Virus record (IMG/VR): IMGVR_UViG_3300026026_000070
Coordinates: 1-42,418 of that record
Strand: one strand, 5' to 3'
Source of the DNA: a virus
DNA length: 42,418 bases
Shown: positions 3,936 to 22,594 of the stretch, piece by piece
Numbering within the stretch: position 1 is the first letter of the stretch
How the letters are laid out: every line of letters begins with the position of its first letter
The notes under the pieces: generated by a model
The model's input: only the letters and a program-made list of their open reading frames with translations
The model's database searches: none
What the model was told of the DNA's origin: nothing
Translations under genes and position numbers: made by a program

Positions 3936-3942
3936 TGACCAC

Positions 3943-5097
3943 ATGGAAGTCTGGCAATATCCACCGCAGAACAACGTCATTGAAAGCCTAGAATGGCTTA
4001 CCGACATCATTCACTGTCGCAATGGCGAGTTTCGCGCATGTACACGCCGCTTTCCTCGACAAGAGTTTTCGTTTCAGCATCAATTCGACGAAGGCACCTA
4101 TGGACTTGCTCGTGAAAAACGTCGCATTGTAGGCGGTTCACAGCTCTACGTACCTGATTGGCCGCGCATGGCCACGATTCCCGCCGTCAACGCGGGCACG
4201 GTAACCTTGCCCGTGGATACTGCGCACGCTTCGTCTTTCAAAGTTGGCGGTGCTGTGCTCGTAATCGAAAGCACAACGTTGTACGAAGTACACACAGTAA
4301 GCGATATCGGCGATGGTACAATCACAGTTAGTGCTTTGACCCATAGCTACAGCCGACCCTTAGTGGTTCCTTTGCGTGTCGGAACGTTTGTGCAACCATT
4401 AGCGGGTACAAGGTACGCAAGCCACTATGTCACTGCACACGCATTGTTCAAGATTACTGCAACAGAAGATATGATCGATGCGACTGCAACTGTGCTGCCT
4501 ACTTATCTCAACTGGCCAGTGATTTTGTCAGCTCGCGAATTGATCAATAGCAGTGAGGATAGCGTTGATCGCGTAGTTGAGACATTAGATTCAGCTACGG
4601 GTGGACTAGCAAATTATTCGTTGTATTCCTATGCACAGACAAGCATGAGTGTAGCATTGACGGCGCAGACTTCTCAGCAAGCTATTGATTTGCGATCGTT
4701 GTTGGCCACGCTGTGCGGAAGGTGGAAAGCGTTTTGGCTTCCGAGCAATAACGCCGACTTTACACTGACGAAAGACATTGCCGACGGTGAGGATTTTGTG
4801 CAGGTTGCTGCTGTTGGCTTTGCAGCAAGCTACGGGCTTGGAACTGACATAGGCATATTGACTAAAGTGGGAGGCATCATTGGCTTACGCATTACGAGCG
4901 TAACCACTGAGATCCCAGGAAACGAGCGATTGCACTTCACAAGCGGTGCGTTTGCTGGTAACTTGGCTATCTCACTTGTGGACAAGGTATGCACGCTAAC
5001 GCCGTCTCGCCTAGATGCTGATCGCATTGAATTGCAGTATAAGCCTGGACTTGTCTTGACTGTTGTAGTGCCCACACAAGAGGTACTTGCACCATGA
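3943..5097 (+). CDS. Distal tail protein (DUF2460 / GTA g12-like, by position)
   Basis: 384-aa ORF that begins 8 nt after the tape measure stop. The following genes have a GTA-like order. The family name is recalled from memory, not searched. Confidence 0.6.
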   Translation: MEVWQYPPQNNVIESLEWLTDIIHCRNGEFRACTRRFPRQEFSFQHQFDEGTYGLAREKRRIVGGSQLYVPDWPRMATIPAVNAGTVTLPVDTAHASSFKVGGAVLVIESTTLYEVHTVSDIGDGTITVSALTHSYSRPLVVPLRVGTFVQPLAGTRYASHYVTAHALFKITATEDMIDATATVLPTYLNWPVILSARELINSSEDSVDRVVETLDSATGGLANYSLYSYAQTSMSVALTAQTSQQAIDLRSLLATLCGRWKAFWLPSNNADFTLTKDIADGEDFVQVAAVGFAASYGLGTDIGILTKVGGIIGLRITSVTTEIPGNERLHFTSGAFAGNLAISLVDKVCTLTPSRLDADRIELQYKPGLVLTVVVPTQEVLAP

Positions 5098-5912
5098 GCT
5101 ATGCGAGCAAAGAATTGTCAGTCCAGGATTCAATGCCTGTATGGCTTGTGCGCTTTGTACAAGGTGCAGTTACGTATCAGTACAATACCAGCAACGAATC
5201 GTTGACGCGACTGGCTTCACTGTGGAATCCCGCTGTGCTTGTTCTAGGCGATATCGAGATCACGGGCGAAATTCCAAAGAGCACGCTTGCCCTAAAGTTG
5301 CCTTATGACAATCCGCTAGCCGCAACGTTCATTGGCTACTCACCCGATGTAATCACGACAGTAACTGTATGGCGAACGCACGCAGACGATACGGATGTGC
5401 GTGTGCTTTGGAAGGGTCGCGTATTGAGTGCACCTGTTGATGGTCACATAGTTACGCTTAATTGTGAGCCTGTGTTTTCATCGCTAAAACGTCGCGGATT
5501 GCGTCGAGTGTACCAGCGAACATGCTCTTTTGCGTTTTTCGAGCGAGGCTGCAATGTGGATCCTGATGACTACAAGCACACGCTTACTGTGACAGCTGTC
5601 AATGGCGCAGTTGTCACAGTGACGGGGGCGAGTGCTTACGATTTGGCAAGAGGAACGTTGCAAGCACCTGACGGGACGATTCGTATGATTGTCAAGCAAG
5701 CGTTGAATGTGCTAACGCTCATGCGTCCGATTCAGTCACTTGCACTTGAAATGGCCGCACATCCTGGCGGCTTTGCTGTCGATTTGTTTGAAGGATGCCA
5801 GCATACTCGTTCTGCGTGCACAGCCAAGGGTAACCTTGGAAACTATGGCGGCGAAGAGCGCATTCCTGCCACTAATCCTATGGCCAATCCAATTGCTATG
5901 AGGCGCGCATAA
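5094..5912 (+). CDS. Tail hub protein (DUF2163 / BR0599-like)
   Basis: It starts in an ATGA overlap with the upstream gene. The C-terminal Cys motif (FFERGCN...FEGCQHTRSACTAKGNLGNYGGEERIP) resembles the BR0599 C-terminal domain of GTA g13-type proteins. Confidence 0.6.
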   Translation: MSYASKELSVQDSMPVWLVRFVQGAVTYQYNTSNESLTRLASLWNPAVLVLGDIEITGEIPKSTLALKLPYDNPLAATFIGYSPDVITTVTVWRTHADDTDVRVLWKGRVLSAPVDGHIVTLNCEPVFSSLKRRGLRRVYQRTCSFAFFERGCNVDPDDYKHTLTVTAVNGAVVTVTGASAYDLARGTLQAPDGTIRMIVKQALNVLTLMRPIQSLALEMAAHPGGFAVDLFEGCQHTRSACTAKGNLGNYGGEERIPATNPMANPIAMRRA

Positions 5913-8900
5913 TGCTTCAATACGCACTGCTTGCTATTGCCGTCGCGGCCGCAGGTTATCAGTTTTACAAGATGGTAACCGCTCCATTTCCATATTCTGC
6001 GCAGGAATGGGGCGATTGTCCCAAAGCAGAGGAAGGGCTTCCGATTCCTGTAGTCTTTGGAACGGTCATGATCGCGTCGCCAAATATCACTGGATTTTCG
6101 GATCAATCAGACGAGCCCGATACGCAGTTTGATCCGCCTTCAATTCATTACTACGCCGCCGTACAGTTCTCGCTTTGTCATGGTTGCATTGACAAGCTAG
6201 TGAGCGTATCGGTAGGTGGCACTGAGATTTGGCGCGGACCTCACGAAGACGGCGCTAGCGTGTTTGATCCTTTGACGCAGTTTTACTTGAGTGCTGAGTG
6301 GTACTCTCCTAGTGATGGTGATGGCGTACAAGGTCAGTTCGTGCTCGAACGTGGCTACCTGCGCACGACTACCGACGACGGGACAATTGCAGATTTGGCG
6401 GACTCCTACCTACTTTCAAAGATCGGCGGCTCAAAGGTTCCAAAGAGTCATGGTGTGGCGACGCTCAAGCCGTGGACCCCTTGGTATTTAGGCAATGCTC
6501 CGGCGCTCAAGCCATGGGCCTTTCGTGTGCAACGCATCTTTCGCACTGATGGCGGGCAGGCTGCGCAGTGGTATCCTGCGAAAGCTGCGATCGTGCTTGG
6601 CCGCAATCTTGAAGATAAGTGGAAGTGGAAGGTGCAGGCAACAGTTGATACAACTGACTACAGCGCCGTGGCCTACGATGATTCGGAGTGGGACGAAGGC
6701 CCGGGTGGTTTTGGCAATGAAGCCGTAGGCGCCTATGGCCAAGGTCGAGATCCGTCGTGGGCGTCACGCGTGCCCAAAGTTGGAACATGCATTGCTGACA
6801 ACAGTAATGCATGGTCGTGGAATGGACAGCAAAGCCCACCGCACGTAGTGGCTGGTACAAAGCTTTGGCTTCGCCAAGATCTCGGGCCTTTGCCCGATAT
6901 CGGTTTGTACGTGCGTTGCTATCATGACGATAGCGCTACGCTATGGTTCAATGGCACAGAAGTTGCACTCGCGCCTGTTGTCTCGAAGGATTTGCAATCT
7001 AATGTGTTCAATTCCATTGGCAGCATTGCCAGGAATTTGATTGTGCCCAATGGTCCGAATGTGATTGCATATCGAGTAAAGGACAGTGTTCCGACGGGTA
7101 CTCCGAAGTACATCTATGCAGGTGTATCGGTTGGCATCGATCCTACAAGCTACGCTGCCACGTGGGATATGAATTTTGCGCATATCATTCGCGAGATCTT
7201 GACGGACACAATTTGGGGCATGGGCTATGCGACTGCCGATATCAACGATACTTCGTTTACTGCTGCAGCGGACACTCTGTACAACGAAGCTCTTGGCGGA
7301 TCTATTCTATGGGATGCACAGTCTACGTATGAGGAGCTTTTACAGGCAATTCTTCGTCACATTGATGGTGTTTTGTATGTTGATCGGATTACCGGTCAAT
7401 GGACACTGAAACTTTTGCGTGACGACTACGATATCGACGATTTGCTTGTGCTTGACTACGACAATGTGGGTAGCGTGCAGAACGCTATTCGTAAAAGCAC
7501 TGCAGAATTGTGTAATGTTGTTACGGTCAAGTACAAGCGTGCTCCACTTGGCGACACCGCATCTGCTACATTCCACGATTACGGGCTTATGCAAGAGCAA
7601 GGCGGATGGGTTAGCGAGACAGTTGAGTTTCCGTTTTTGACCAATGCTCATTCGGCGAACCTTGTCGCCCAGCGTGCTCTCAAGGCGAAGTCCACACCCG
7701 TACAGACTTGCACACTTGAAAATTGTAGTCGCGAGGCTGCTGATCTCAATTGGGGAGACGCATTTGTGCTCAACTGGCCAGTGCTTGGCATCAATATGCA
7801 AGTTATGCGCGTATTGTCTATCAAGCTTGGCAATGGAACGTCAAGCTCCGTTACAATTGAGTGCGTAGAAGACGTGTTTTTTACGCCTACAGAGCCCCTT
7901 GTTATTCCAGGGGGAATTGCATGGCCGCCGCAAGTGCTAGGCCCGATGCCTGGCACGACTTCGCAAACTACCTACAAGACTGTGCGGAAGTACGATCCTT
8001 TGGATCGCGGCAGTGTTAAGTGCGTCTTTGCAACTCCTTCTGAGGGTGCTTTGTTTGACGGATGGACAGAGACTCCGGCGGGATCTGGCATCATGGTTCG
8101 CGACTACACAGGACCGTTAACTAGCGCTTTCTTTGACGGCGTTGACCCCGACACGAGTAACCACGCAGGTTCGGCTCTGGTTGGCTTGACGGTGCTCGCA
8201 GAAAAGGCAACTGACAACTATGATCGCGCTTTGTCTGGCCCTTATGTGGTGAAGGATATCGGTCAGTATTGGACTGAAGGACCTCCTGGGGTTTGGGTAC
8301 CAACATCGACGCATGCGACACTCACGCGCCACGCTGACTATGCTGTGGCATCTGCTTTTGTGCCGAGCATGACGTTCTATGTACTTGAAGGCAACGTATA
8401 CGCGCATGCGTATGCGACGCTAGCTAATCCGTGCACCGATCTAGGCAGTGACGATTTGCTTTGGTCCTATTCTGCTGGCGAGACATTCGACGATGGCGCG
8501 GAGTTGCTCACCGAGGCTGAAATCGCGCAGTCAAGCGTGAGCAACGAAGTCATTGACATCACTGTCACAATGGCCAGCGGCACAGCTGATTTTGACATCG
8601 CGTTTCTTTCACGAGTGCTCGGCGTAGCAAGCATTCCGGCTGGCCCGTGGACATTCATTGCTGAGGCCGCTTGGCTCACGACAGATGATCTTGATGCTAC
8701 AATTGCACTTGGCTGGAAAGTGTACAGACACAATGATAGTGGATCGGTTTTGCTTTTTGAAGCGCTTACTGCTGCAATTCACAATACCGTGCCTGAGCCT
8801 AAGCGAGTGCTCTACGATGCTGCTGCGTTTTCGATACGTGAAGACGAGTGGCTTGTATTGATACCTTGTCTTCACACAACATCGAGCAGCGCAGTGACGC

Positions 8901-9355
8901 TACACTTGCGCTACAATAGTCCATCACGAGGAACTGGCGTCACTATTCCAGTTGAAGCATACAAGAAAGACATCACTCGGCGAATTCTTGCAGGATCGCC
9001 AGTGCAGCCTACAACCTTTGTCGGCGGTGTGATCATTGTTCGTGATCTCGCTAAGCCTGTTACAGTAACAATTCCAGCAGGCTCGACAGTTGTTGGCATT
9101 GCAGCGCCTGTGCCTGCCGATGGATTCTTGATGCCGGTCACGATCTACGGCGCCACGAATGAATCACCTATCACACTTGCTCACATGAGCGCCGCATGCC
9201 CCAATTCTGCGAAGCCTGTCTATCTGTCGAGCGAGGCGGGCATGGGCGTAACGTTCCCAGGCGAAACATTTTATGCTACAAGGGCGCGTTTGCTCTTGTG
9301 CTACAACGCCACAGAAGGTAATTGGCAATTGATGCCAGGAGGATCACTAGCATGA
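5912..9355 (+). CDS. Central tail fibre / host-specificity protein (gpJ / GTA g15-like)
   Basis: 1147 aa, starting in a TAATG overlap. The N-terminal EEGLPIPVVFGT motif is typical of gpJ-like proteins. It is the largest gene in the distal tail module. Confidence 0.75.
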   Translation: MLQYALLAIAVAAAGYQFYKMVTAPFPYSAQEWGDCPKAEEGLPIPVVFGTVMIASPNITGFSDQSDEPDTQFDPPSIHYYAAVQFSLCHGCIDKLVSVSVGGTEIWRGPHEDGASVFDPLTQFYLSAEWYSPSDGDGVQGQFVLERGYLRTTTDDGTIADLADSYLLSKIGGSKVPKSHGVATLKPWTPWYLGNAPALKPWAFRVQRIFRTDGGQAAQWYPAKAAIVLGRNLEDKWKWKVQATVDTTDYSAVAYDDSEWDEGPGGFGNEAVGAYGQGRDPSWASRVPKVGTCIADNSNAWSWNGQQSPPHVVAGTKLWLRQDLGPLPDIGLYVRCYHDDSATLWFNGTEVALAPVVSKDLQSNVFNSIGSIARNLIVPNGPNVIAYRVKDSVPTGTPKYIYAGVSVGIDPTSYAATWDMNFAHIIREILTDTIWGMGYATADINDTSFTAAADTLYNEALGGSILWDAQSTYEELLQAILRHIDGVLYVDRITGQWTLKLLRDDYDIDDLLVLDYDNVGSVQNAIRKSTAELCNVVTVKYKRAPLGDTASATFHDYGLMQEQGGWVSETVEFPFLTNAHSANLVAQRALKAKSTPVQTCTLENCSREAADLNWGDAFVLNWPVLGINMQVMRVLSIKLGNGTSSSVTIECVEDVFFTPTEPLVIPGGIAWPPQVLGPMPGTTSQTTYKTVRKYDPLDRGSVKCVFATPSEGALFDGWTETPAGSGIMVRDYTGPLTSAFFDGVDPDTSNHAGSALVGLTVLAEKATDNYDRALSGPYVVKDIGQYWTEGPPGVWVPTSTHATLTRHADYAVASAFVPSMTFYVLEGNVYAHAYATLANPCTDLGSDDLLWSYSAGETFDDGAELLTEAEIAQSSVSNEVIDITVTMASGTADFDIAFLSRVLGVASIPAGPWTFIAEAAWLTTDDLDATIALGWKVYRHNDSGSVLLFEALTAAIHNTVPEPKRVLYDAAAFSIREDEWLVLIPCLHTTSSSAVTLHLRYNSPSRGTGVTIPVEAYKKDITRRILAGSPVQPTTFVGGVIIVRDLAKPVTVTIPAGSTVVGIAAPVPADGFLMPVTIYGATNESPITLAHMSAACPNSAKPVYLSSEAGMGVTFPGETFYATRARLLLCYNATEGNWQLMPGGSLA

Positions 9356-14544: not shown

Positions 14545-15089
14545 GCCGCACGTGCAATGCGCTTGTGCGCGACTGCTAGCTGTCGAGGCGCAGCGGCCAG
14601 CACTTCGTACCATGCGCGACGCTCGACTGACACCCAGCTAGTGCTGAACAGTGGCCACACCTTCGGGCGAAGCATGCGTAGCAGATCGGGATTTGTCACG
14701 AACAATCGGAACAACTCAGCAAACCACTCATTGCTATTTGGGCAGTAGCCTGTCAAGGCTTCCGGATCTGTAGGTCGCCACAAATGCGAGAGTGTTCCGC
14801 CTTTTGCGCCGTGCTGCTTGTCAACATGATGGCCAAGCTCGTGTGCTAGAACGCCAAACGGCGTACGATCTACACTGTAACCTGGATAGCTCCAACATCT
14901 GCCAGCAGTGCCAATTGCTGCACAAGCATTTGGCCAAATGTCAATGGTTCCATTGCGGTAGTAGGCACAGACTCCGAAGTCACAGTGTCCTAGCCAGTGT
15001 TCGTTAATGACAGGTATTGCGACGCTATTAGCTCGGCACCATTCGTGCACGTGTTGTTTTCCTGCTGTGAGCAATTCTTGTTTTGTCAT
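14541..15089 (-). CDS. Zinc metallopeptidase, ImmA/IrrE-like (HExxH)
   Basis: HELGHH is followed about 40 aa later by NEWFAELFRLFVTNP, which matches the E..A..FA...L.P pattern of COG2856-type peptidases. It has ATGA overlaps at both ends. Confidence 0.5.
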   Translation of the reverse strand: MTKQELLTAGKQHVHEWCRANSVAIPVINEHWLGHCDFGVCAYYRNGTIDIWPNACAAIGTAGRCWSYPGYSVDRTPFGVLAHELGHHVDKQHGAKGGTLSHLWRPTDPEALTGYCPNSNEWFAELFRLFVTNPDLLRMLRPKVWPLFSTSWVSVERRAWYEVLAAAPRQLAVAHKRIARAA

Positions 15090-16012
15090 ATTCGCCCCAA
15101 GATCACACCGCGCGTACGTTCGCCCGTGAACCTGCATGGCTGTGGGTAGTCCGCGAAAGCTATTGCGGTTGCGATATCTTCTAGGCTCGCCAATTGACGA
15201 AGCGAGAAGCGTGCACCTGCAGGAATACCAGGAACCTCATAGGCTGCCGCCTCTGTGACGAGCTTGCTTTCGAGCAAGCGAACATCCTCGCCGAAGGGGG
15301 CGAGTCGCGCAAGTGCCTCGAAGAAGCCATCAGGCAACGCAGGTGCAGTCGCATGCGATAGCAGTGCCGTCAACGAAGGTGGCCACACTGTAGGGTGTAG
15401 TACGGTGCGAAGCCATCGCCCGTCGGCATAGTGGAACGTTGCCGATCGATCACACAGTTGTGCGTGCGAGGGAGTGTCACCCATGCGCAATAGCTCTCGC
15501 ACAGCTACTAGCGGAATGTTGATATCCACTGGTAATTTACTGCCACACCAATACTCGACTAGAATGGTATTATTTGTGGCGTATGCCGAGGAGTCGCGGA
15601 AGAGTACACCATTGAACGCTTGCCTAGTTGTGTCTGTGGATACGTAAGGTGCTAGGGTCTGGAGCGCCTGCAGGAAGGTAGCGTCTATGGGGCAGGTGAA
15701 GCCTTCGGGTACGACACGCGGAAACGTGTTGGCAGTGCACGGCACTGTTACTTGAAGTGGACCACTTTTGACTACTAGACCGTGTTCTGTTAGGTGCAGC
15801 TGCGCAGGTTCTACGCATGCTTCGATGGCCTTGACAAACAGATCGGCATTGGGACAAGCGGCCAAGTCGAGCACAACAGGCGCACAGATTGCAACAGTTC
15901 CGTTGAAGCTGACAGCGTAGCCACCGCCAATTGCAATATGCTGCAATGCTGGCATGTAGTCGCTTTTAGCGACTGCGCCTGCTACACACTTTAGCGCTTG
16001 CAGTAGCTCCAT
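15086..16012 (-). CDS. DNA sliding clamp-like protein (DnaN-like)
   Basis: The ATG at 16012 has GAAGGA 6 nt upstream. The N-terminus MELLQALKCVAGAVAKSDYMPALQHIAI resembles beta-clamp N-termini. At 308 aa it is co-operonic with the polymerase. Confidence 0.5.
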   Translation of the reverse strand: MELLQALKCVAGAVAKSDYMPALQHIAIGGGYAVSFNGTVAICAPVVLDLAACPNADLFVKAIEACVEPAQLHLTEHGLVVKSGPLQVTVPCTANTFPRVVPEGFTCPIDATFLQALQTLAPYVSTDTTRQAFNGVLFRDSSAYATNNTILVEYWCGSKLPVDINIPLVAVRELLRMGDTPSHAQLCDRSATFHYADGRWLRTVLHPTVWPPSLTALLSHATAPALPDGFFEALARLAPFGEDVRLLESKLVTEAAAYEVPGIPAGARFSLRQLASLEDIATAIAFADYPQPCRFTGERTRGVILGRI

Positions 16013-16032
16013 GCAGATCCTTCGTGATAGTG

Positions 16033-16078
16033 AAAAAACGTGGGAGGCTGCGCCCGGCATCGGATCGTAGCCTCCCAC
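16033..16078 (-). terminator. Intrinsic terminator: 10-bp perfect GC-rich stem followed by G and T6
   Basis: GTGGGAGGCT (16040..16049) pairs with AGCCTCCCAC (16069..16078). On the minus strand the hairpin is followed by GTTTTTT (16039..16033). The T-tract ends 21 nt before the clamp ATG. Confidence 0.75.
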
Positions 16079-16371
16079 TTGGTTCTAGGGAAGTATGTAC
16101 AATACTGTGCTTTTGTTCTCTTCTCTTTCCGGTCTATTACGACCGGGGAACCATGGCGCCACCTCCTTTCCGTAGGCTCAAGTTGACGGCTCGAACGTCG
16201 GTACACCGTAAGCCGCAATGGCTAGTCAGGCGATTGGGCCATGCCTGACACTGGCGTGCTATCCTGCACATTATGTACACTTGAGTTTCCTTGTAGTCTC
16301 GGTTTCGATTGTGCGCATAGCCTCGACTACGTTAAGCCTGTAGGCTTCACACATAAGCCGAATCCGGCAAT
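16033..16371 (-). ncRNA. Candidate noncoding RNA or leader bounded by a promoter and a terminator
   Basis: There is no sense ORF of 60 aa or more. Several hairpins and a 7-bp long-range helix are visible. A strong SD precedes a 5-codon mini-ORF (16154..16137). No known RNA family was recognised. Confidence 0.35.
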
Positions 16372-16377
16372 TTTAAT

Positions 16378-16406
16378 ATTATAGTGCGCCTGCCACTTGC
16401 TCAACA
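16378..16406 (-). promoter_or_regulatory. Sigma70-like promoter candidate
   Basis: The minus strand carries a perfect TATAAT at 16383..16378. The -35 region contains TTGTTGAGC, so the spacer is 15-18 nt depending on register. Confidence 0.45.
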
Positions 16407-16551
16407 AAAGTGTGCAGGCTAGGTGCTGGTTGCGGCTAGCTACGCGATCACAATCTATCGCTAGCAAGCCGACACAGCACAATATCCACATTGGCATTTG
16501 CTTGTGCCTCCCAAGGTGCCCGCGTCCGTCGACGCGAGCACGAGCGAGGCG

Positions 16552-17373
16552 CTAGCCTACGCTCGGCGAGTTTGCGCGCAGCCACGGGGGCAGATTCGCT
16601 GCACCTGCGACGGTGGGCACAGGCTGCTGCACAGGCGCAGTCGGAGCGATTACCGATGGCACTTGCGCGGCAGGGATCGGCATCTGTGTCTGCACAGGCT
16701 GCGACGGCGCAAAGGACGGCACTGCGCCGGGGGGCAGGTTGCTCGCAGCAGCGGGGGCAGGCTGCGCAGCGACGGCGGCGGGGGTGGGCTTATTGGCTGC
16801 GAAACCGCGCGGCAAGCGCGGCAGCCCAGTGGCGCTACGCCACTTGCTGTACTGAGTAGCTGCCGTTAACTCGTTGACAGGCTGCCCGTTGAGCGTCGGG
16901 GAGAATTGCTTGATCGCCGCGATCAGCTCATCCTTGCTTGGAGCTCGACCAAGTTGCTGCGAAAGCCCGTCGCAGTAGCTCCACACGAGCCCGCCGACAG
17001 TGCTGGCGCCAGGACGCGAGGGCACGGCAGGGGTTGCCGGCTGCTGTGCAGGTGCCGTGACGGCGGGGATCGAGGGTTGTTGCACGGGGGGAGCGGAGAT
17101 GGGTGCAGTCGGAACGCTTATCGTCTTGCTGGCTTCGAGCGCCTTGTTTGCGAGGTAGGTTTCGATCTGCACAAGCTCGCCAAGCTTGGCGTCGATGCTA
17201 GCGAGCAGGGTTGCGACGGCGGAAGTGGTGACGATGGATTGCGTGTTCTCGGTCATGGTCTGTCCTTCTTTCGTGGTTTTGTTGCTGTGTGACTTGTTGT
17301 TTGACTTCTTCGCTGGCTTGTGTGCCGGCTTCGAGGGCTGCGGCTTCTTAGCCGACTTCTTCTTTGTGGCCAT
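16552..17373 (-). CDS. Pro/Ala/Gln-rich protein with a Lys-rich histone-H1-like N-terminus
   Basis: 273 aa. The N-terminus is MATKKKSAKKPQPSKPAHKPAKKSNNKSHSNK, and SD GGAG lies 6 nt upstream of the ATG. An alternative internal start, MTENTQ, also has a GAAGGA SD. Confidence 0.6.
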   Translation of the reverse strand: MATKKKSAKKPQPSKPAHKPAKKSNNKSHSNKTTKEGQTMTENTQSIVTTSAVATLLASIDAKLGELVQIETYLANKALEASKTISVPTAPISAPPVQQPSIPAVTAPAQQPATPAVPSRPGASTVGGLVWSYCDGLSQQLGRAPSKDELIAAIKQFSPTLNGQPVNELTAATQYSKWRSATGLPRLPRGFAANKPTPAAVAAQPAPAAASNLPPGAVPSFAPSQPVQTQMPIPAAQVPSVIAPTAPVQQPVPTVAGAANLPPWLRANSPSVG

Positions 17374-17566
17374 ATTGTCTCCTCTGGAGTTGTACTGTCA
17401 ACTGTAGAATGTCGCGCTTGACCTTGCGGATGGTAGAAGATAGCGCGGTAACGTTTGCCTTTGTGCCTGCAGCGCGTGCAGTAACAAAACGTTCTTTTAC
17501 CATGCTTTGCAGGCCGCGCAATCGATCACGCAATAGGTACAGTTGGGCGTTAAATGATTCTTGCAT
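17348..17566 (-). CDS. Hypothetical protein (72 aa, helical)
   Basis: The ATG at 17566 has AGGAG 7 nt upstream. The ORF track starts at 17581. Confidence 0.5.
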   Translation of the reverse strand: MQESFNAQLYLLRDRLRGLQSMVKERFVTARAAGTKANVTALSSTIRKVKRDILQLTVQLQRRQYGHKEEVG

Positions 17567-17813
17567 CGTTACGCTCCTCATTGGTTGCTGTCAATAGTCG
17601 AATTGCGAGATACTTGCACGCTTGCAGGGTGGCGTTGTAGTCGTCACACTCGACTGTGTAGCCAGTGGTGTTGTAGTAGAGTCTGCGTAACTGCTCTATC
17701 GTCAATGCGCTGTAGGTTCGGCTAACGCACGCATCGCCTTCGATCGTGCCTGGCGTGCGAGGATTTAGGTGCAGCGCAAATCTACAGTCTGCTGTGTCGA
17801 TCACAATGCGCAT
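17550..17813 (-). CDS. Hypothetical protein (87 aa)
   Basis: The ORF lies in the operon orientation and packs tightly against its neighbours. Confidence 0.5.
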   Translation of the reverse strand: MRIVIDTADCRFALHLNPRTPGTIEGDACVSRTYSALTIEQLRRLYYNTTGYTVECDDYNATLQACKYLAIRLLTATNEERNDARII

Positions 17814-17844
17814 TGCTGTGCTCTATCAGGTGTTGGCTTCGCGG

Positions 17845-18054
17845 TCAAGTCTCGATTGCTTGCAGCTCAGGGATCCCATTCTTGCCGTGCGTGGCGCGCA
17901 ATCTGCGCAGTAACGCTGCTTGCCGCTCTGCAAGTGCTCTATTGACGATTACGTCTGCGTCTGCACGATAGTAGCCTGTGCCGAGGCACTGTTCACACAA
18001 GCCATCGGGCCTTTGCGTGCCGTGCCCGGTGCCCTTGCAGATATTGCAGATCAT
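17845..18054 (-). CDS. DnaJ-type zinc-finger protein (two CxxCxGxG motifs)
   Basis: The motifs are CNICKGTG and CEQCLGTG. SD AGGTG lies 5 nt upstream of the ATG. Confidence 0.6.
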   Translation of the reverse strand: MICNICKGTGHGTQRPDGLCEQCLGTGYYRADADVIVNRALAERQAALLRRLRATHGKNGIPELQAIET

Positions 18055-18144
18055 GTGAGCACCTGGAAGCCTTGCGCCGTTGCGTAGCTTCGCAGTACTT
18101 TGATGCGCGCGCTGCCTGTGTCGCTGGCACTGAGCGGTGTACGA

Positions 18145-18372
18145 TCATCGACGGGCATTGGCTAGCGACTCCACAATTGTTAGCTTGCAAGGCTGGCTAG
18201 CGTCGGCTTCCTGATATATGAGCACAGCAGTGCAGTAATTGCATTGCCACACAGTTACACTTCCGTTGCCGCGCACAGTCTTAACGATTGCGTCGCGTCC
18301 CCATGCATGCGCATTATTGAGCGATTCGTTGCGTACTAAGCAATTGCCTGACGGTGCGGGTGTTGCGTTCAT
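18145..18372 (-). CDS. Hypothetical protein (75 aa)
   Basis: The ORF lies in the operon orientation and starts 6 nt after the upstream stop. Confidence 0.5.
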   Translation of the reverse strand: MNATPAPSGNCLVRNESLNNAHAWGRDAIVKTVRGNGSVTVWQCNYCTAVLIYQEADASQPCKLTIVESLANARR

Positions 18373-18377
18373 TGTGG

Positions 18378-18626
18378 TTACTCCTCATCTTTGCGCTTGC
18401 CATTTTCGTCGACTAGTCCTGCGATGCACTCCAGGTGATCGAGTAGTGCGTCGGCTTCGCTGTACTTGTCCGCAATCTGGTCTAGTGCACTACGCAACTT
18501 GAGTGTCAGTGCTGCTACGTCACCATTCCCGGAATGCATACCTTTTGCAGCTTGGATTATGTCTTGGCACGCAGCAATGATGACTATTGCGCGTCCGGCG
18601 ATGCCGAGAGTTAGATCTAGGATCAT
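18378..18626 (-). CDS. Hypothetical protein (82 aa)
   Basis: It starts in an ATGA overlap with the upstream gene at 18623..18626. Confidence 0.55.
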   Translation of the reverse strand: MILDLTLGIAGRAIVIIAACQDIIQAAKGMHSGNGDVAALTLKLRSALDQIADKYSEADALLDHLECIAGLVDENGKRKDEE

Positions 18627-18883
18627 GGCTCAAATGGTCCAATGTAGACTGTGGTAGCGTCGAATGGACCGACATTGACTAGGCGCTCAATCGCACCTTC
18701 AACTGCGGCCGAGTCCAGCTCAGCGAGAAACGTATCGACGGGCAAGCTCGGCTCGTCACTTGTGCGCTCAGCAGGGACTGCAAACGCCCATGCGGGCAGG
18801 TCGAGGGCGAGGGCAGGACTGTCAGCTCGTGCTGCGCTCGTCAGGCCGCAGACCAGGATCGCGGTGCAGATGCAATTACGCAT
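18623..18883 (-). CDS. Exported acidic small protein (86 aa, Sec-type signal peptide)
   Basis: The internal ATG at 18883 gives MRNCICTAILVCGLTSAARA/DSPALALDL..., with an AxA cleavage-type site. The mature part is acidic. It lies inside the GC-rich insert. Confidence 0.5.
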   Translation of the reverse strand: MRNCICTAILVCGLTSAARADSPALALDLPAWAFAVPAERTSDEPSLPVDTFLAELDSAAVEGAIERLVNVGPFDATTVYIGPFEP

Positions 18884-19871
18884 GTTGCACGCGCGCCGCG
18901 ATCGCCTCTTGCGCCGCCACCTCGATCGCCCGGAGTGCGCGATCGTCTCCCGTCGCACGCACGATCGCAGCCGGCGCGCCAGTCTCGACTGACAGACCAT
19001 GGCGCACGCAGTAGGCGCGGATCCCACCGTCGCAGAGACCGGCACTCCGGGCATGCTGATACGTGACCTGGAGGCGCGGGCACATGATCGTCACGAGGTG
19101 GACGCGCCTCGCTTGCTTGTGAGTCTCATGCTCGCGTGCCTGCTCGGCTTCGACCATCACACACTTGCGCATGATTTCTGCGCGACACGCAGCGTAGGTC
19201 ACGCCGTGCTCCCACTTGCCGAATCGCGCCGCGAGGGCTGTTGGTATCGGGACCGACACGCCAGTGCGGCGCAGATCGATGCCATATCTCACGACCACGC
19301 GCGTCTCGCGGAGGCCCAGGACGTCACCGTCGAGTAGACAGCTCTGCTCGACTCGACCGCGCCAGTCGCGCGGCAGCCGGGCGAGGGAGATTGTCGCGAC
19401 CTTGTGCGCGAGGTGGGACCACAGGGTGACAGTCCGGGTGTCCGTCGTCGCGCCGTAGTTTTTCCAACGGCGCGGTCCGTAGCTGCGATGCCAGCTCTTA
19501 GAGTAGCTATCTCGTGATTCGTCATCCTGGCCACCAGTGCCGTAGGTGCACGTCGCCTCCGAGCTCGCGGCGAGGGAGTGCACGTGTAGGTGATACGCAC
19601 GACCAATCTTGCACGCGAGAGTCTCCCATCCGGCTTTGCGGCGACGCTGCTCGACTGTCCAGCGCTTCGCGCGAGGGATCCACTCCTCGCGCGTCGTCGG
19701 GCGCAGTGACGGATCGAGTCTCTCGGCTCGTGCTCTCAGGACCGCGGACGCGCGCACGTAGCGAGCATAGCGCTTGGTACTCGTGCCGCGTTTGCGCGTA
19801 CTGTACGCGAGTGCGTTACACGCTTTGACGATCTGCTCTACGTTTTCCGTGACATTCTGTGTTGTAGTCAT
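18876..19871 (-). CDS. Arg-rich protein of unknown function (331 aa) in the GC-rich insert
   Basis: It is the longest ORF in a stretch where every frame is open, which is a high-GC effect. It follows the operon orientation. I recognised no family motif. Confidence 0.55.
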   Translation of the reverse strand: MTTTQNVTENVEQIVKACNALAYSTRKRGTSTKRYARYVRASAVLRARAERLDPSLRPTTREEWIPRAKRWTVEQRRRKAGWETLACKIGRAYHLHVHSLAASSEATCTYGTGGQDDESRDSYSKSWHRSYGPRRWKNYGATTDTRTVTLWSHLAHKVATISLARLPRDWRGRVEQSCLLDGDVLGLRETRVVVRYGIDLRRTGVSVPIPTALAARFGKWEHGVTYAACRAEIMRKCVMVEAEQAREHETHKQARRVHLVTIMCPRLQVTYQHARSAGLCDGGIRAYCVRHGLSVETGAPAAIVRATGDDRALRAIEVAAQEAIAARVQHA

Positions 19872-19898
19872 GATGACGTCTTTCTATGGATGCCGGGG

Positions 19899-20051
19899 TT
19901 AGACCATCTTGATTCCGAGTTTGCGCAGTGCACGCTTCGCTGAGGAGTCGGCAGGCGGTGCTGCCATGCGGGCTTGCCACTCCTTGTAGCTTTGTGCGGC
20001 AAGTTGCTCAAATGTAAGAGCAGGTTTTGCGATCTTTTGTGACTTTGACAT
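19899..20051 (-). CDS. Hypothetical small protein (50 aa)
   Basis: Hand translation gives MSKSQKIAKPALTFEQLAAQSYKEWQARMAAPPADSSAKRALRKLGIKMV. It is below the ORF-track cutoff. Confidence 0.4.
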   Translation of the reverse strand: MSKSQKIAKPALTFEQLAAQSYKEWQARMAAPPADSSAKRALRKLGIKMV

Positions 20052-20059
20052 GATGTTTC

Positions 20060-20230
20060 CTACTCGTACAGATCGTCAAATGCATCGGACACAGTATCGT
20101 ACACTGACTTGGCGCTACGTGCACGAATGTAAAGCGTCATTTGCTCGACGTTCGAAAGCTCGGAATGATGCTTCGCAATGTAGCGATCGAGCACTACGCT
20201 GCTTGCCATGTCTGCCGTACAGATGAGCAT
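20060..20230 (-). CDS. Hypothetical small protein (56 aa, acidic C-terminus)
   Basis: Hand translation gives MLICTADMASSVVLDRYIAKHHSELSNVEQMTLYIRARSAKSVYDTVSDAFDDLYE. SD AAGGAG lies 7 nt upstream. It is the first gene after the repeat-rich intergenic region. Confidence 0.5.
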   Translation of the reverse strand: MLICTADMASSVVLDRYIAKHHSELSNVEQMTLYIRARSAKSVYDTVSDAFDDLYE

Positions 20231-20355
20231 ATCTGGACTCCTTTGTAGGTTTCGGCCGCGGTGCTATCGGCTAGGTCCCTTGCAGCAATGTGCTTGGCCT
20301 TACCTAGCGCGATGTCACATCTTGCCACCAGTGTCGACTTGCTAGCTGCGAGACG

Positions 20356-20384
20356 ATTCTACGCTATTGCAAATAGTCGGCCAA
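20356..20384 (-). promoter_or_regulatory. Sigma70-like promoter candidate flanked by operator-like repeats
   Basis: On the minus strand TTGGCC (20384..20379) is followed by a 17-nt spacer and then TAGAAT (20361..20356). TGCAAATAGT direct repeats lie at 20368..20377 and 20388..20397. Confidence 0.4.
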
Positions 20385-20531
20385 GTCTGCAAATAGTGCA
20401 AAATGCTGAAATCATTGATGTCGCTTAGCAGCATGTTACTTAAAGTGCGTAGTCGGCTACGCTATTTAGCCGCTAACTGCGAAGTAGTTTGCGCAGTTAG
20501 TGTGTAGCCAGTTACGCGCATGTAAGCTACG

Positions 20532-20738
20532 TTACAAAGTTGGTTGCGCAGTACGGCATTTCTTGCATAGCGTGTCATATTGCACAAAGCGGTGTGGAGT
20601 GCCCAGCCACGTGCCCGCGACTTGACGCGAATAGTCGCATCCTGGACACATTATGCAGCTATAGTGTACCTGATAGCCGAGTAGCTTTGGATCAAGTATT
20701 GATCGACAACTGGCCAAAAGTATGCGCGCGGCGATCAT
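20532..20738 (-). CDS. Zinc-ribbon small protein (68 aa)
   Basis: This uses an internal ATG of the 157-aa track ORF and gives MIAARILL...CIMCPGC...CKKC. It avoids overlapping the upstream 73-aa gene. Confidence 0.45.
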   Translation of the reverse strand: MIAARILLASCRSILDPKLLGYQVHYSCIMCPGCDYSRQVAGTWLGTPHRFVQYDTLCKKCRTAQPTL

Positions 20739-20748
20739 CGACACTCGC

Positions 20749-20970
20749 TCAGAACGGTATCTGTGTGTAGTCGATCCAATCCTCGCAGCCGACGAGCAGT
20801 ACACGATGCGGCGGGGTCTCGCCAAAGTGAATGCATCCACGCGCGTGCGGCGACAAGTCCAATGGTGCTTGCCACCACGTGCAATTGTAGCAGCAGTGCC
20901 ACAGTCCTTTGTCGATATACGATTGCTGGGCAACAATTGCGGCCAGATTGGTTTCTTTCTCAGAAGGCAT
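20749..20970 (-). CDS. Cys/Trp-rich small protein (73 aa)
   Basis: The ATG at 20970 overlaps the helicase stop by 11 nt. The protein contains HCCYNCTWW...C...C. Confidence 0.5.
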   Translation of the reverse strand: MPSEKETNLAAIVAQQSYIDKGLWHCCYNCTWWQAPLDLSPHARGCIHFGETPPHRVLLVGCEDWIDYTQIPF

Positions 20971-22594
20971 ATCCCCTCACTTCCGGGTATTGCTTGTTGA
21001 TCCACACCGCTATTGTCTTTGGTGTTCGCAGTTCGGGCAAGCGCTTGACAGCTTCCACAACTGTAGCTGGCGGTTGTGTGTTCGTATGCTCATGCCACCA
21101 CGTCTTAGCTCTGTGCTTTGGATAGCCATCGTGCTCAAAGCAAAGCCATTCGTGGAAGATGCGCAGTCCACAGTGGTAGCTCACTTTCAAGCTCTCTTTA
21201 GAGCCCGGCTTGGTGTGGACATTGTATGTCACTCGATCAACGGGCATATCCACAATCGCAGGAACCTCACTGCGCTTTAGTATGTCGTCGCCTGCTGCGC
21301 GTGCCTTGAAGCGTACCTTGATCTGGAAGGGTGCTTTACAATAGGGGCACACTCGCGCGCTAGCATGACAATAGCTGTTGCACGCTTCACAGACTTTGAC
21401 GGGCGCTTCTCCGTGCCCCTTGCCTTTCTTCTTTGGCGTAACAGGATCATTGATGGGGCCTAGTCGCCGCACATTGCCCGCAAAGTCAAGCACAAGACAG
21501 TTGGGCTTTTGTGATGCTTGTATAGCGTCCAGTCGCCCCCTGGTTGTGGATATGTCGAAGCCTGGCGCGTACACTGCGCGTGCTCCTCGGCCCAACGTCT
21601 GCACGTGCAAGCCTGGCGAGATTGTAGGCCGTAGCATGAGTATCAGATCGATCAACGGGAAGTCAAAGCCTGTAGTCAAGACTCCGTTGTTGAAGCATGC
21701 GCGAAACTCGCCAGCCCGATAAGCAGCTAACCGCGAGTCTCGCTCGCTGTCTGGCATCTTGCTGTGCACTACTGTAGCAGACACACCTAGTTCATTGCAG
21801 AATTGCGCGCAGTGTTCTGCGTGCTCGACACCTGCCGCGAATCCAAGCCAGTGTGCGCGATTACCACCAAGGCGCAGTGCCTCGGCAAGCGCAGCGCGGG
21901 TTACCTCGGCTTTGTCGACTGCGCCCTGTAGCTGCTTTTGGTTATACTCTCCTTGTCGAATTTGCACACCGTCAACCTGTAACTTTGTAGATGTCGGGCG
22001 CGCAATGAGGGGGCACAGGTAGCCTTCATCCACGAACCAGTTGAACACGGCGAATTCTGTCATATCTACTGCAACATCTGTAAATAGTCCGCCGTCTACA
22101 AGGTCACCTTGCCCTAGCCGATAGTGCGTGGCTGTCAAGCCAATTGTCTTGAGTTGCGGATTGGTCTTGCGCAGTTCTCGCAGGAACGCTTGATACATGG
22201 TGTCCTCTTTCGGGGAAACCAAGTGGCACTCGTCAATGATTACGAAGTCGATGAAGCCGAAGGCTTGCGGGCAAGCCACGGCAGAGCCGATGCCCGCAAC
22301 TGTGATGGCTGCATAGGTTTCTTTGCGGCCAAGTCCTGCTGAGTACACGCCGATAGGCGCTGTTGGCCACAGTCGCAGTATCCAAGTCAGGTCTTGCTGC
22401 AAGATTTCTTTGACGTGTGACAAGAGCATGCAACGTGTTCCGGGATAGCGCTGGAAAGCCTCAACCAAGAACTGCGCAATCACAACTGACTTGCCCGTGC
22501 CTGTGGGCATGGCAATGATCGGGTTTCCTGTGCCTTCGGCAAAGAATTGCCAGAGGCAATCAACGCCGTACTGCTGATAATCGCGCGGCTGCAT
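20960..22594 (-). CDS. SF2 DEAH-box helicase with a C-terminal zinc ribbon
   Basis: Walker A is MPTGTGKS and the DEAH box is IIDECH. The C-terminus carries CEACNSYCHASARVCPYC. Confidence 0.85.
   Translation of the reverse strand: MQPRDYQQYGVDCLWQFFAEGTGNPIIAMPTGTGKSVVIAQFLVEAFQRYPGTRCMLLSHVKEILQQDLTWILRLWPTAPIGVYSAGLGRKETYAAITVAGIGSAVACPQAFGFIDFVIIDECHLVSPKEDTMYQAFLRELRKTNPQLKTIGLTATHYRLGQGDLVDGGLFTDVAVDMTEFAVFNWFVDEGYLCPLIARPTSTKLQVDGVQIRQGEYNQKQLQGAVDKAEVTRAALAEALRLGGNRAHWLGFAAGVEHAEHCAQFCNELGVSATVVHSKMPDSERDSRLAAYRAGEFRACFNNGVLTTGFDFPLIDLILMLRPTISPGLHVQTLGRGARAVYAPGFDISTTRGRLDAIQASQKPNCLVLDFAGNVRRLGPINDPVTPKKKGKGHGEAPVKVCEACNSYCHASARVCPYCKAPFQIKVRFKARAAGDDILKRSEVPAIVDMPVDRVTYNVHTKPGSKESLKVSYHCGLRIFHEWLCFEHDGYPKHRAKTWWHEHTNTQPPATVVEAVKRLPELRTPKTIAVWINKQYPEVRGYAF

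What the first reader, a model, noticed from the sequence alone, without database searches (positions are those of the whole stretch)
18623..19871. GC-rich two-gene insert in the early operon: Arg-rich 331-aa unknown protein plus an exported acidic 86-aa protein
From about 18.65 to 19.87 kb the sequence is visibly more GC-rich than its surroundings. Every reading frame on both strands is open for 60-110 codons here, as the cluster of overlapping track ORFs shows, and this happens nowhere else in the genome except the Pro/Ala-rich gene at 16.5-17.4 kb. That suggests foreign origin (a moron).

The operon-sense reading gives two proteins. The first is a very basic 331-aa protein with no motif I can place; it contains HLHVH and a C-terminal GLCDGGIRAYCVRHGL segment. 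The second overlaps its stop by 8 nt and is an 86-aa protein with a Sec-type signal peptide (MRNCICTAILVCGLTSAARA/DSP) and an acidic mature part.

A cytoplasmic protein paired with an exported protein, expressed early from a compositionally foreign cassette, is a typical candidate for superinfection exclusion, host takeover or anti-defence. It appears uncharacterised.
Basis: partly seen in the sequence, partly recalled or inferred. Interest (0 to 1): 0.62.

Follow-up and report, generated by a model that had tools for sequence, protein, structure and literature searches.

The report
Foreign GC-rich accessory gene in phage
A phage's replication operon carries a recently imported, GC-rich gene for a 331-aa protein of an undescribed family, followed by a small orphan gene for a possibly secreted protein. 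The import is well supported, but the two are not a conserved pair and their function is unknown.

Summary
Window 18.7-19.8 kb is the GC maximum of this complete 42.4-kb siphovirus genome and has its lowest six-frame stop density.

**The 331-aa gene (18876-19871, minus strand)**
- It is real and belongs to a metagenome-only family of about 258 clusters.
- Its GC3 (0.74, z=3.5) and synonymous codon choice are foreign to this genome.
- Close relatives of the phage lack it. Its nearest homologues lie in about 63%-GC phage contigs, where the gene has the same composition. Horizontal acquisition into a hypervariable slot is therefore well supported.
- The protein has Arg-rich N-terminal helices and a confidently modelled beta-rich domain with no structural match.
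- It also has invariant E221-H222, K236 and G278-x-C280-x-x-G283.
- The C-terminal ~65 aa are homologous to Pseudomonas phage YuA gp75 (phrog_1196), a small non-virion protein encoded among tail-tip genes.

**The 86-aa ORF (18623-18883)**
- It is translationally coupled on both sides, scores best of the six frames, and has a Sec-like signal peptide.
- It has no homologue anywhere, and homologues of the 331-aa gene have unrelated downstream genes.

The "cytoplasmic plus exported pair" is therefore not a conserved cassette. No evidence links either gene to exclusion or anti-defence. Function remains inferred only.

The parts
18876..19871 (-). 331-aa gene ('g331'): basic (pI 10.15, 44 Arg), horizontally acquired accessory protein of an unnamed metagenomic phage family
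   Evidence: Open frame with GC1/2/3 of 0.66/0.55/0.74. Homologues at 46-67% identity. 258 clusters at E<=1e-3. AF2 model pLDDT 90.8.
19584..19871 (-). Residues 1-96: Arg-rich N-terminal helices (5-51, 61-80, 82-96). Poorly conserved and modelled with lower confidence.
   Evidence: pLDDT 58-82 over the first 80 residues. Alignments.
19197..19583 (-). Residues 97-225: beta-rich domain carrying YGxGG...SYSKSW, LLDGD, R195-Y196, TGV and W-E221-H222-G. No structural match.
   Evidence: Foldseek found nothing below E 0.25 in PDB, and in BFVD its only confident matches were to the C-terminal domain.
19083..19196 (-). Residues 226-263: one 38-residue helix with near-invariant E232 and invariant K236. 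It links the beta domain to the C-terminal domain.
   Evidence: The WEHG to GxCxxG spacing is 58 residues in most members that carry both motifs.
18900..19112 (-). C-terminal phrog_1196 / YuA gp75-like domain (about residues 258-323) with invariant G278, C280 and G283
   Evidence: PHROG E 1.3e-10 and 9.4e-13. 30 of 56 family members hit it. tblastn to YuA-like phages at 45-47% identity, E 3e-4. BFVD small phage proteins match with prob 1.0 and TMt 0.7-0.82.
18623..18883 (-). 86-aa orphan ORF ('g86'): Sec-like signal peptide MRNCICTAILVCGLTSAARA followed by an acidic 66-aa part (pI 4.05). Start overlaps the g331 stop by 8 nt; stop overlaps the next start (ATGA).
   Evidence: Sequence. Best of six frames under a native 3-periodic Markov model, +0.044. 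No homologue. Called as an 86-aa gene by the source pipelines. No Rfam hit and no fold signal, z -0.88.
18700..19800 (.). GC-rich block (0.61-0.71 in 150-bp windows): the compositional footprint of the acquired DNA
17743..20960 (-). Hypervariable accessory slot between the helicase gene and the conserved 87-aa/273-aa genes. It has no DNA similarity to relatives whose flanking genes are 72-76% identical.
18378..18626 (-). Next gene downstream (82 aa), translationally coupled to g86. Unknown function, genome-typical composition.

Best explanation
**What is shown**

The 331-aa gene is a genuine, non-essential accessory gene. It was recently brought by recombination from a higher-GC phage lineage into the hypervariable slot of the leftward replication arm, between the helicase gene and the clamp/PolA genes. 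It has no promoter or terminator of its own. It is read as part of the operon, chained to its neighbours by overlapping stops and starts.

The product is a basic cytoplasmic protein in three parts:
- Arg-rich N-terminal helices.
- A beta-rich domain with no detectable structural relative, carrying invariant E221-H222 and K236.
- A C-terminal ~65-aa domain homologous to YuA gp75. In other siphoviruses gp75 is a stand-alone, non-virion protein encoded exactly between the two pieces of the tail-tip gene.

**What is inferred**

The conserved unit is the beta domain, the long helix and the gp75-like domain at fixed spacing. I infer that it acts as a binding or adaptor module (protein-protein through the slightly acidic gp75-like fold), with the Arg-rich helices contacting nucleic acid. 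This would modulate a host or co-infecting-phage process and give a conditional advantage rather than a core function.

**The 86-aa ORF**

It is most likely a real, translationally coupled, lineage-specific small secreted acidic protein. It is not a conserved partner of the 331-aa protein.
For: **The gene is real**
- Homologues at 46-67% identity share a conserved core.
- A profile search finds 258 clusters.
- The AF2 model has pLDDT 90.8.

**It is foreign**
- GC 0.648 and GC3 0.741 (z=3.5), with synonymous usage unlike the rest of the genome.
- The native coding model scores its frame best of six but negative, at -0.039.
- Homologues lie in 0.63-GC contigs with gene GC 0.667 and GC3 0.75.
- Nucleotide similarity to L006 (69%) ends at the stop of the gene.

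**It is accessory**
- It is absent from five related records, including two complete genomes. The positive control on the window's own genome is.
- The whole 20960-17743 stretch lacks DNA similarity to relatives whose helicase is 84-86% identical in protein.
- Homologues in other phages also sit among small unknown genes.

**The C-terminal domain**
-.
- Its tail-module position in YuA, Bhz54 and Vibrio AQKL99 is shown.

**Operon embedding**
-.

**The 86-aa ORF**
- Best frame score, coupling on both sides, and no RNA alternative.
Against: - No function is demonstrated. The binding/adaptor role is inference from architecture only.
- Invariant E-H, K and C residues could equally mark a catalytic or metal site.
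- The GC3 of the family gene is about 0.75 in both low-GC and high-GC genomes. Part of the bias could therefore be gene-intrinsic.
- The 86-aa ORF has no homologue and no Shine-Dalgarno sequence, and only a modest coding score. It could be a non-functional open frame at a recombination joint.
Confidence: 0.6

Rival explanations
1. One reading: the 331-aa and 86-aa genes form a functional two-gene cassette (a cytoplasmic plus an exported protein) for superinfection exclusion, host takeover or anti-defence.
For: - The two genes are adjacent and translationally coupled.
- They sit in an accessory slot where such genes typically reside.
- The 86-aa ORF has a Sec-like signal peptide and an acidic mature part.
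- A relative carries a different signal-peptide-like ORF in the same slot.
Against: - The pair is not conserved. Downstream genes of homologues are unrelated: 70 aa, 49 aa, 112 aa and 74 aa.
- g86 has no homologue at all.
- The GC-rich block ends inside g86, and g86's GC3 is near genome-typical at z=0.9.
- PADLOC, Pfam and NCBIfam gave nothing.
Confidence: 0.12
2. The 86-aa ORF is not a gene. It is a chance open frame in GC-rich DNA left at the recombination joint, and serves only as a spacer between g331 and the 82-aa gene.
For: - It has no homologue among 5.8 billion clusters or in IMG/VR.
- There is no Shine-Dalgarno sequence before its ATG.
- All frames are unusually open here.
- The coding score is only +0.044.
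Against: - It is the best-scoring of six frames, and its score is comparable with other small genes of the phage (0.04-0.17).
- It fills the 250-nt gap exactly, with an overlapping start and stop on both sides.
- It has a well-formed n-h-c signal peptide with A-x-A.
- The region has no RNA family or structure signal.
Confidence: 0.3
3. The 331-aa protein is an enzyme. One option is a circularly permuted papain-like/NlpC-P60-type hydrolase (His on a strand, Cys at a helix N-terminus). Another is a His-Me-finger nuclease, acting on host or competitor macromolecules.
For: - E221, H222, K236 and C280 are invariant across 56 diverse members, with fixed 58-residue spacing.
- C280 sits just before helix 281-290 and H222 sits in a strand.
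- The motif C-x-G-x-I...G-L-S resembles the NlpC/P60 Cys-helix. This is recalled from knowledge of the family, not tested.
- In lambda- and GTA-type tail modules an NlpC/P60 gene occupies the position where stand-alone gp75 sits. This too is recalled knowledge.
Against: - No member matched an NlpC/P60, LRAT, C92 or HNH-type Pfam model. The closest thing was one weak Tox-GHH2 hit in a single member.
- There is no PDB sequence hit and no Foldseek hit for the whole model or the C-domain.
- The Cys-bearing domain exists alone as a 68-aa protein without the His part.
- The single weak Tox-GHH2 and PADLOC endonuclease hits are in one member each. The only GHH motif found is at residue 24 of P0095, outside the shared core.
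Confidence: 0.12
4. The GC-richness is not due to import but to amino-acid content (13% Arg, 13% Ala) and gene-specific selection, as for the Pro/Ala-rich 273-aa gene.
For: - The other GC-rich gene (16552-17373) is conserved in relatives, so high GC can be native.
- The family gene keeps GC3 at about 0.75 in genomes of different GC.
Against: - The shift is at synonymous sites within codon families (Leu, Val, Ala).
- The gene is missing from close relatives.
- The native coding model scores it negatively.
Confidence: 0.08
5. g331 is a selfish, mobile gene (homing-type free-standing element) that spreads between unrelated phages without benefit to them.
For: - Its distribution is sporadic, across a 42-kb PolA siphovirus, an 81-kb phage and a 133-kb phage.
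- It shows a recent-transfer signature.
- It is basic and modular.
- The related small domain sits as an insert between two halves of a tail gene in other phages.
Against: - No nuclease motif or fold was detected.
- It lies in a variable slot rather than next to or inside a conserved target gene.
Confidence: 0.08

Closest known systems
Pseudomonas phage YuA gp75 and its PHROG family phrog_1196 (annotated 'tail assembly chaperone')
   Same: The C-terminal ~65 residues of the 331-aa protein share the motif V..HAR..G.C..G.RA[FY]..RHGL...G.P...L.ATGD..A..V. Supporting scores are HMM E 1e-10 to 1e-12, 45-47% identity by tblastn, and BFVD models with TMt 0.7-0.8.
   Different: gp75-type proteins are 63-111 aa, stand alone, and lie in the tail module between a 77-aa protein and the Phage-tail_3 tip protein. 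Here the domain ends a 331-aa protein in the replication arm, always preceded by a WEHG beta domain and a long helix. The name 'chaperone' appears to rest on position only; no experiment is known to me.
Phage morons / accessory genes in hypervariable slots (lambdoid moron concept)
   Same: Compositionally deviant, absent from close relatives, and inserted between conserved genes.
   Different: No promoter or terminator of its own was detected. It is expressed by coupling within the operon.
Small exported or lipoprotein exclusion factors of siphoviruses (T5 Llp, phi80/N15 Cor, T4 Imm/Sp type)
   Same: The 86-aa ORF is small, has an N-terminal export signal, and lies in an accessory region.
   Different: There is no sequence similarity and no canonical lipobox (the nearest, I-L-V-C, has Val at -1). 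No homologue exists at all, and no functional data.
NlpC/P60 superfamily, circularly permuted branch (LRAT / YiiX type)
   Same: The order His (strand) then Cys (helix N-terminus), and a local motif around the Cys.
   Different: No profile, sequence or fold match. The Cys domain folds and occurs on its own.

Membership tests
phrog_1196 / YuA gp75-like domain | Significant match to the family profile | tested here: met
   E 1.3e-10 over residues 258-323. E 9.4e-13 in the six-frame search. 30 of 56 relatives match, best 1.8e-12.
phrog_1196 / YuA gp75-like domain | Same small fold as stand-alone members | tested here: met
   BFVD hits to the 63-111-aa proteins of phages Phobos, LAh_7 and phiAxp-2, with prob 0.96-1.0, TMt 0.52-0.82 and rmsd 1.5-2.0.
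phrog_1196 / YuA gp75-like domain | Stand-alone small protein encoded in the tail-tip module | tested here: not met
   Here it is the C-terminus of a 331-aa protein in the replication arm. The window's tail module has no copy. For the usual position.
Tail assembly chaperone (function) | Demonstrated role in tail assembly, or the G/GT-type frameshift architecture upstream of the tape measure | tested here: not met
   The gene is 9 kb from the tail genes on the opposite strand. No frameshift partner is evident from the sequence and ORF list, though none was searched for. The PHROG label is positional. YuA gp75 carries no 'particle protein' note, unlike gp74 and gp76.
Moron (strict sense) | Own promoter and terminator flanking the inserted gene | tested here: not met
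   The consensus scan finds none on the minus strand within 18.6-19.9 kb. The nearest promoter-like sites are at 20079-20050 and 20384-20356. Stops and starts overlap.
Moron (strict sense) | Deviant composition and absence from related phages | tested here: met
Sec-type (SPase I) signal peptide, 86-aa ORF | Positive n-region, 7-15-residue hydrophobic core, small residues at -3/-1 | tested here: met
   The sequence reads M-R-N, then CICTAILVCGL, then TSA-A-R-A before DSP. This is by inspection only; SignalP is not available.
Sec-type (SPase I) signal peptide, 86-aa ORF | Actual export and cleavage | not testable with these tools
   Needs a PhoA/BlaM fusion or mass spectrometry.
Helix-turn-helix DNA-binding domain (considered for the C-terminal domain) | HTH fold recognisable by structure comparison | tested here: not met
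   The A274/G278/I284 spacing fits the classical A5-G9-I15 pattern. However, the domain-only model (pLDDT 91) gives only 4 PDB hits, all at E>4 and none an HTH. Stand-alone members are slightly acidic (by inspection).
NlpC/P60 (permuted) | Profile or fold match to papain-like Cys-His hydrolases | tested here: not met
Known anti-phage defence / exclusion proteins (PADLOC) | Match to a defence-system model | tested here: not met
   No hit for g331, g86 or g82. One of 56 relatives has a weak hit at E 8.7e-4.

The most novel reading that the evidence does not exclude
The 331-aa family may be a structurally new class of phage conflict protein that has captured a tail-tip-module domain (gp75-like). 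Expressed early from the replication arm, it would bind the tail-tip machinery of co-infecting phages or host tailocins, or a host defence sensor that watches such parts, and so bias the outcome of mixed infections. The orphan 86-aa secreted protein would be a newly born gene at the recombination joint.
Probability: 0.1. Interest if true: 0.7.

Novelty: new variant of a known kind. Interest (0 to 1): 0.35.

Why it matters
- It gives a clean example of a recent import into the variable slot of a phage replication operon. Three independent lines agree: synonymous codon usage, absence from close relatives, and composition matching a donor-like lineage.
- It defines an unnamed protein family of about 258 clusters, seen only in metagenomes. 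The family has a confidently predicted fold without a structural relative and a short list of invariant residues to mutate.
- It shows that the small "tail assembly chaperone" domain of YuA-like phages is a portable unit that also occurs fused in early-operon proteins. This calls its positional annotation into question.
- It warns against reading adjacent, coupled ORFs as a functional pair without checking conservation.

Tried and rejected
**Database searches for g331 and neighbouring ORFs**
- Pfam, NCBIfam and PADLOC on g331, g86 and neighbours gave nothing usable.
- Pfam and PADLOC on 56 family members gave only single weak hits, consistent with noise. The Tox-GHH2 hit is probably explained by a GHH at residue 24 of one member, outside the shared core.
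- PDB sequence profile search: no hit.
- Foldseek of the full model against PDB: nothing below E 0.25.
- Foldseek of the C-domain model against PDB: 4 hits at E>4. The HTH idea was dropped.

**Searches for relatives and more contexts**
- megablast and tblastn of the region and of the full protein against 50,697 phage records: no match.
- With the 4-sequence alignment it returned one known locus in IMG/VR, none in genome contigs, and three short contigs in metagenomes.
- The second word-based protein search with the broad alignment returned only 6 proteins.
- Cluster look-up of 10 members: all are unnamed metagenomic singletons.
- PHROG scan of neighbours of homologues gave only a terminase fragment.

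**Checks on the 86-aa region**
- RNA alternatives: no Rfam family, no tRNA, fold z -0.88.

Full report
**Setting**

The window is a complete IMG/VR virus record of 42,418 bp with direct terminal repeats. PHROG matches show a siphovirus. The tail genes (tape measure, hub, tip) lie at 1.3-11.7 kb, and the head and packaging genes at 31.9-41 kb.

A leftward replication arm runs from about 26 kb to 12.5 kb. It encodes a Sak4-like annealing protein, SSB, a Cas4-type exonuclease, a helicase, a clamp-like processivity factor and PolA. The portal is 46-50% identical to those of ~42-kb phages of Variovorax, Stenotrophomonas and Pseudomonas, so a proteobacterial host is likely. The finding lies on the minus strand of this arm, between the helicase gene (20960-22594) and the clamp gene.

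**Observation**

- The genome mean GC is 0.540.
- The 1-kb window with the highest GC in the whole genome is 18751-19750, at 0.662. That is about 4 sd above the mean.
- Only this region and the 16.05-17.6 kb region exceed mean+2sd.
- At 150-bp resolution the rich block spans about 18700-19800.
- Six-frame stop-codon density is the genome minimum here: 50-52 per 1250 bp against 82 +/- 12. This explains the crowd of overlapping ORFs on both strands.
- The operon-sense reading is right. Minus frame 0 of 18879-19871 has no stop and GC1/GC2/GC3 of 0.66/0.55/0.74. The other five frames have 5-11 stops.
- The 86-aa ORF starts at 18883 inside ATGCGTAA, an 8-nt overlap with the first gene. It ends in an ATGA overlap with the next gene.

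**The 331-aa gene is real and belongs to an unnamed family**

A word-based search found three homologues at 46-67% identity. They share a long conserved core.

A profile search of 1.84 billion cluster representatives found 258 clusters at E<=1e-3 and 139 at E<=1e-10. Ten members that I looked up are all unnamed metagenomic proteins, mostly singletons.

The family is modular:
- An N-module (YH..., YGxGG..., SYxKSW) can occur alone.
- A C-module can follow other N-termini. It carries LLDGD, RY, TGV, W-E-H-G, a long helix with E and K, then G-x-C-x-x-G-I.
- Within the C-module the WEHG to GxCxxG spacing is 58 residues in most members that carry both motifs.
- In 56 diverse members, E221, H222, K236, G278, C280 and G283 are invariant.

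Pfam, NCBIfam, PADLOC and PDB sequence searches gave nothing.

An AlphaFold2 model built on the 56-sequence alignment is confident (pLDDT 90.8, pTM 0.72). It shows N-terminal helices, a beta-rich domain (108-223), one 38-residue helix (226-263) and a small C-terminal domain.

Foldseek found no PDB match below E 0.25. In BFVD it matched only small uncharacterised phage proteins, and only over the C-terminal domain.

**The C-terminal domain**

- PHROG phrog_1196 matches residues 258-323 (E 1.3e-10). It also matches 30 of 56 family members.
- tblastn of residues 255-331 hits YuA-like Pseudomonas phages at 45-47% identity. It also hits Xanthomonas, Stenotrophomonas, Aeromonas, Vibrio and other phages.
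- YuA gp75 (68 aa) shows the shared motif plainly.
- In YuA, Stenotrophomonas phage Bhz54 and Vibrio phage AQKL99, this small gene lies in the tail module. It sits between a 77-aa protein and the Phage-tail_3 tip protein.
- In YuA the neighbours gp74 and gp76 are marked as particle proteins but gp75 is not.
- The label 'tail assembly chaperone' therefore looks positional.
- The window genome has no other copy, and its relatives have none.

I tested two ideas for this domain. The first was a helix-turn-helix, because the A274/G278/I284 spacing fits the classical pattern. A domain-only model (pLDDT 91) found no HTH in the PDB, and indeed nothing below E 4. Stand-alone members are also slightly acidic. 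I dropped this idea.

The second was a permuted papain-like/NlpC-P60 site, with His on a strand and Cys at a helix start. No profile or fold search supports it. The Cys-bearing domain also exists on its own.

**Foreign origin**

Three independent lines agree.

1. Synonymous usage.
   - GC3 is 0.741, against 0.545 +/- 0.057 for 38 other genes (z=3.5).
   - Leu CTC is 59% against 16%, with no TTG or CTT against 45% elsewhere.
   - Ala GCG is 60% against 25%, and Val GTC is 52% against 21%.
   - A 3-periodic Markov model trained on the phage's own genes ranks the true frame first, but with a negative score. Native small genes score positive.
2. Distribution.
   - Five related phage records were recovered through the helicase gene. 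Its protein is 82-86% identical in four of them and 55% in the fifth.
   - None has a match to the family profile, and two of them are complete genomes.
   - The whole stretch from 20960 down to 17743 has no DNA similarity to relatives whose flanks are 72-76% identical. This is a hypervariable slot that carries other small ORFs in the relatives.
3. Donor-like composition.
   - The nearest homologues lie in contigs of GC 0.63, and the gene there has GC 0.667 and GC3 0.75. These are the same values as in the window.
   - Nucleotide similarity to the closest homologue (69%) stops at the stop codon of the gene.

GC alone would not have sufficed.

The gene is not a strict moron. No promoter-like or terminator-like site lies on the coding strand within 18.6-19.9 kb, and the genes are chained by overlaps.

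Two other datasets hold 100% identical copies of this stretch, so the arrangement is stable in nature. They offer no variation to analyse.

**The 86-aa ORF**

In favour of a gene:
- It is the best of six frames under the native model, at +0.044. Other small genes score 0.04-0.17.
- It fills the 250-nt gap exactly, with coupled start and stop.
- The source pipelines called it as a gene.
- The region shows no RNA family and no unusual fold.
- Its N-terminus has a positive n-region, an 11-residue hydrophobic core and A-R-A before the predicted cut. The remaining 66 residues are acidic (pI 4.05).

Against:
- It has no homologue in 5.8 billion clusters or in IMG/VR.
- There is no Shine-Dalgarno sequence.
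- All frames are unusually open here.

The GC-rich block ends inside it, and its GC3 (0.60, z=0.9) is near native.

Downstream genes of g331 homologues are unrelated to it and to each other. The pair is therefore not a conserved cassette.

**Mechanism**

Shown:
- The gene is an imported, dispensable gene embedded in the operon.
- It encodes a basic protein (pI 10.15, 44 Arg) in three parts.
- It has a conserved C-module ending in a gp75-like domain.

Inferred:
- The fixed-geometry C-module acts as a binding unit, and the Arg-rich helices contact nucleic acid.
- This gives a conditional advantage in host or inter-phage interactions.

I put about 0.6 on the descriptive account. No more than about 0.25 of that rests on the adaptor idea specifically. 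An enzymatic role for E221/H222/K236/C280 remains open.

Contexts of homologues in an 81-kb phage and a 133-kb phage are likewise islands of small unknown genes, and add no functional clue.

**Verdict**

The paired-cassette and exclusion/anti-defence parts are not. This is a new variant of a known kind: an accessory gene whose product fuses an unmatched fold to a portable tail-module domain. Interest is moderate to low until a phenotype is found.

Noticed in passing
window 5912-9355 (+); L019 (YuA NC_010116) 3753-4300: The window's 1147-aa tail-tip protein covers both YuA gp74 (residues 4-69, 38% identity, E 2e-12) and the N-terminus of YuA gp76 (residues 80-185, E 3e-6). In YuA, Bhz54 and Vibrio AQKL99 the 68-81-aa gp75-like gene sits exactly between these two pieces, with overlapping stops and starts. 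The small gene therefore looks like an insert that splits a tail gene, or its loss fused the two pieces.
   Followed up: partly
L019 4173-4272 (YuA record 56007-56106): The annotated GTG start of YuA gp76 seems too far downstream. The frame is open from an upstream GTG and encodes GYKYYLGAHLVICHGPVD, which is conserved in the Vibrio and window proteins.
   Followed up: partly
L008 7534-7935 (+): A close relative carries a different 133-aa ORF with a signal-peptide-like N-terminus (MRTISKIALVLAVAGWTFATC...) in the same variable slot. It is not homologous to the window's 86-aa ORF.
   Followed up: no
L002 8813-9586 and 17332-19041: In the 81-kb contig that holds a g331 homologue, a 257-aa product matches only the C-terminal part of a large terminase (phrog_38 positions 485-627 of 760). 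It lies about 8 kb of small genes away from the SPP1-type portal gene.
   Followed up: no
window 17845-18054 (-): A 69-aa protein with a DnaJ-type CxxCxGxG zinc-finger pattern (MICNICKGTGHG...CEQCLGTG). NCBIfam hits to the DnaJ zinc-finger region and to anti-TRAP are weak, at E 0.002-0.03.
   Followed up: no
window 16552-17373 (-): The other GC-rich gene (GC3 0.73, Pro/Ala-rich, Lys-rich N-terminus) is conserved in relatives at 49-62% identity. Its composition is therefore native rather than imported.
   Followed up: partly
window 14549-20678: Two other public assemblies (Logan SRR10450295, JGI 3300005219) hold fragments that are 100% identical to this part of the window.
   Followed up: yes
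window 20749-20970 (-): A 73-aa Cys-rich ORF just downstream of the helicase gene is the only gene of the variable slot with weak homologues in relatives, at 35-42% identity.
   Followed up: no
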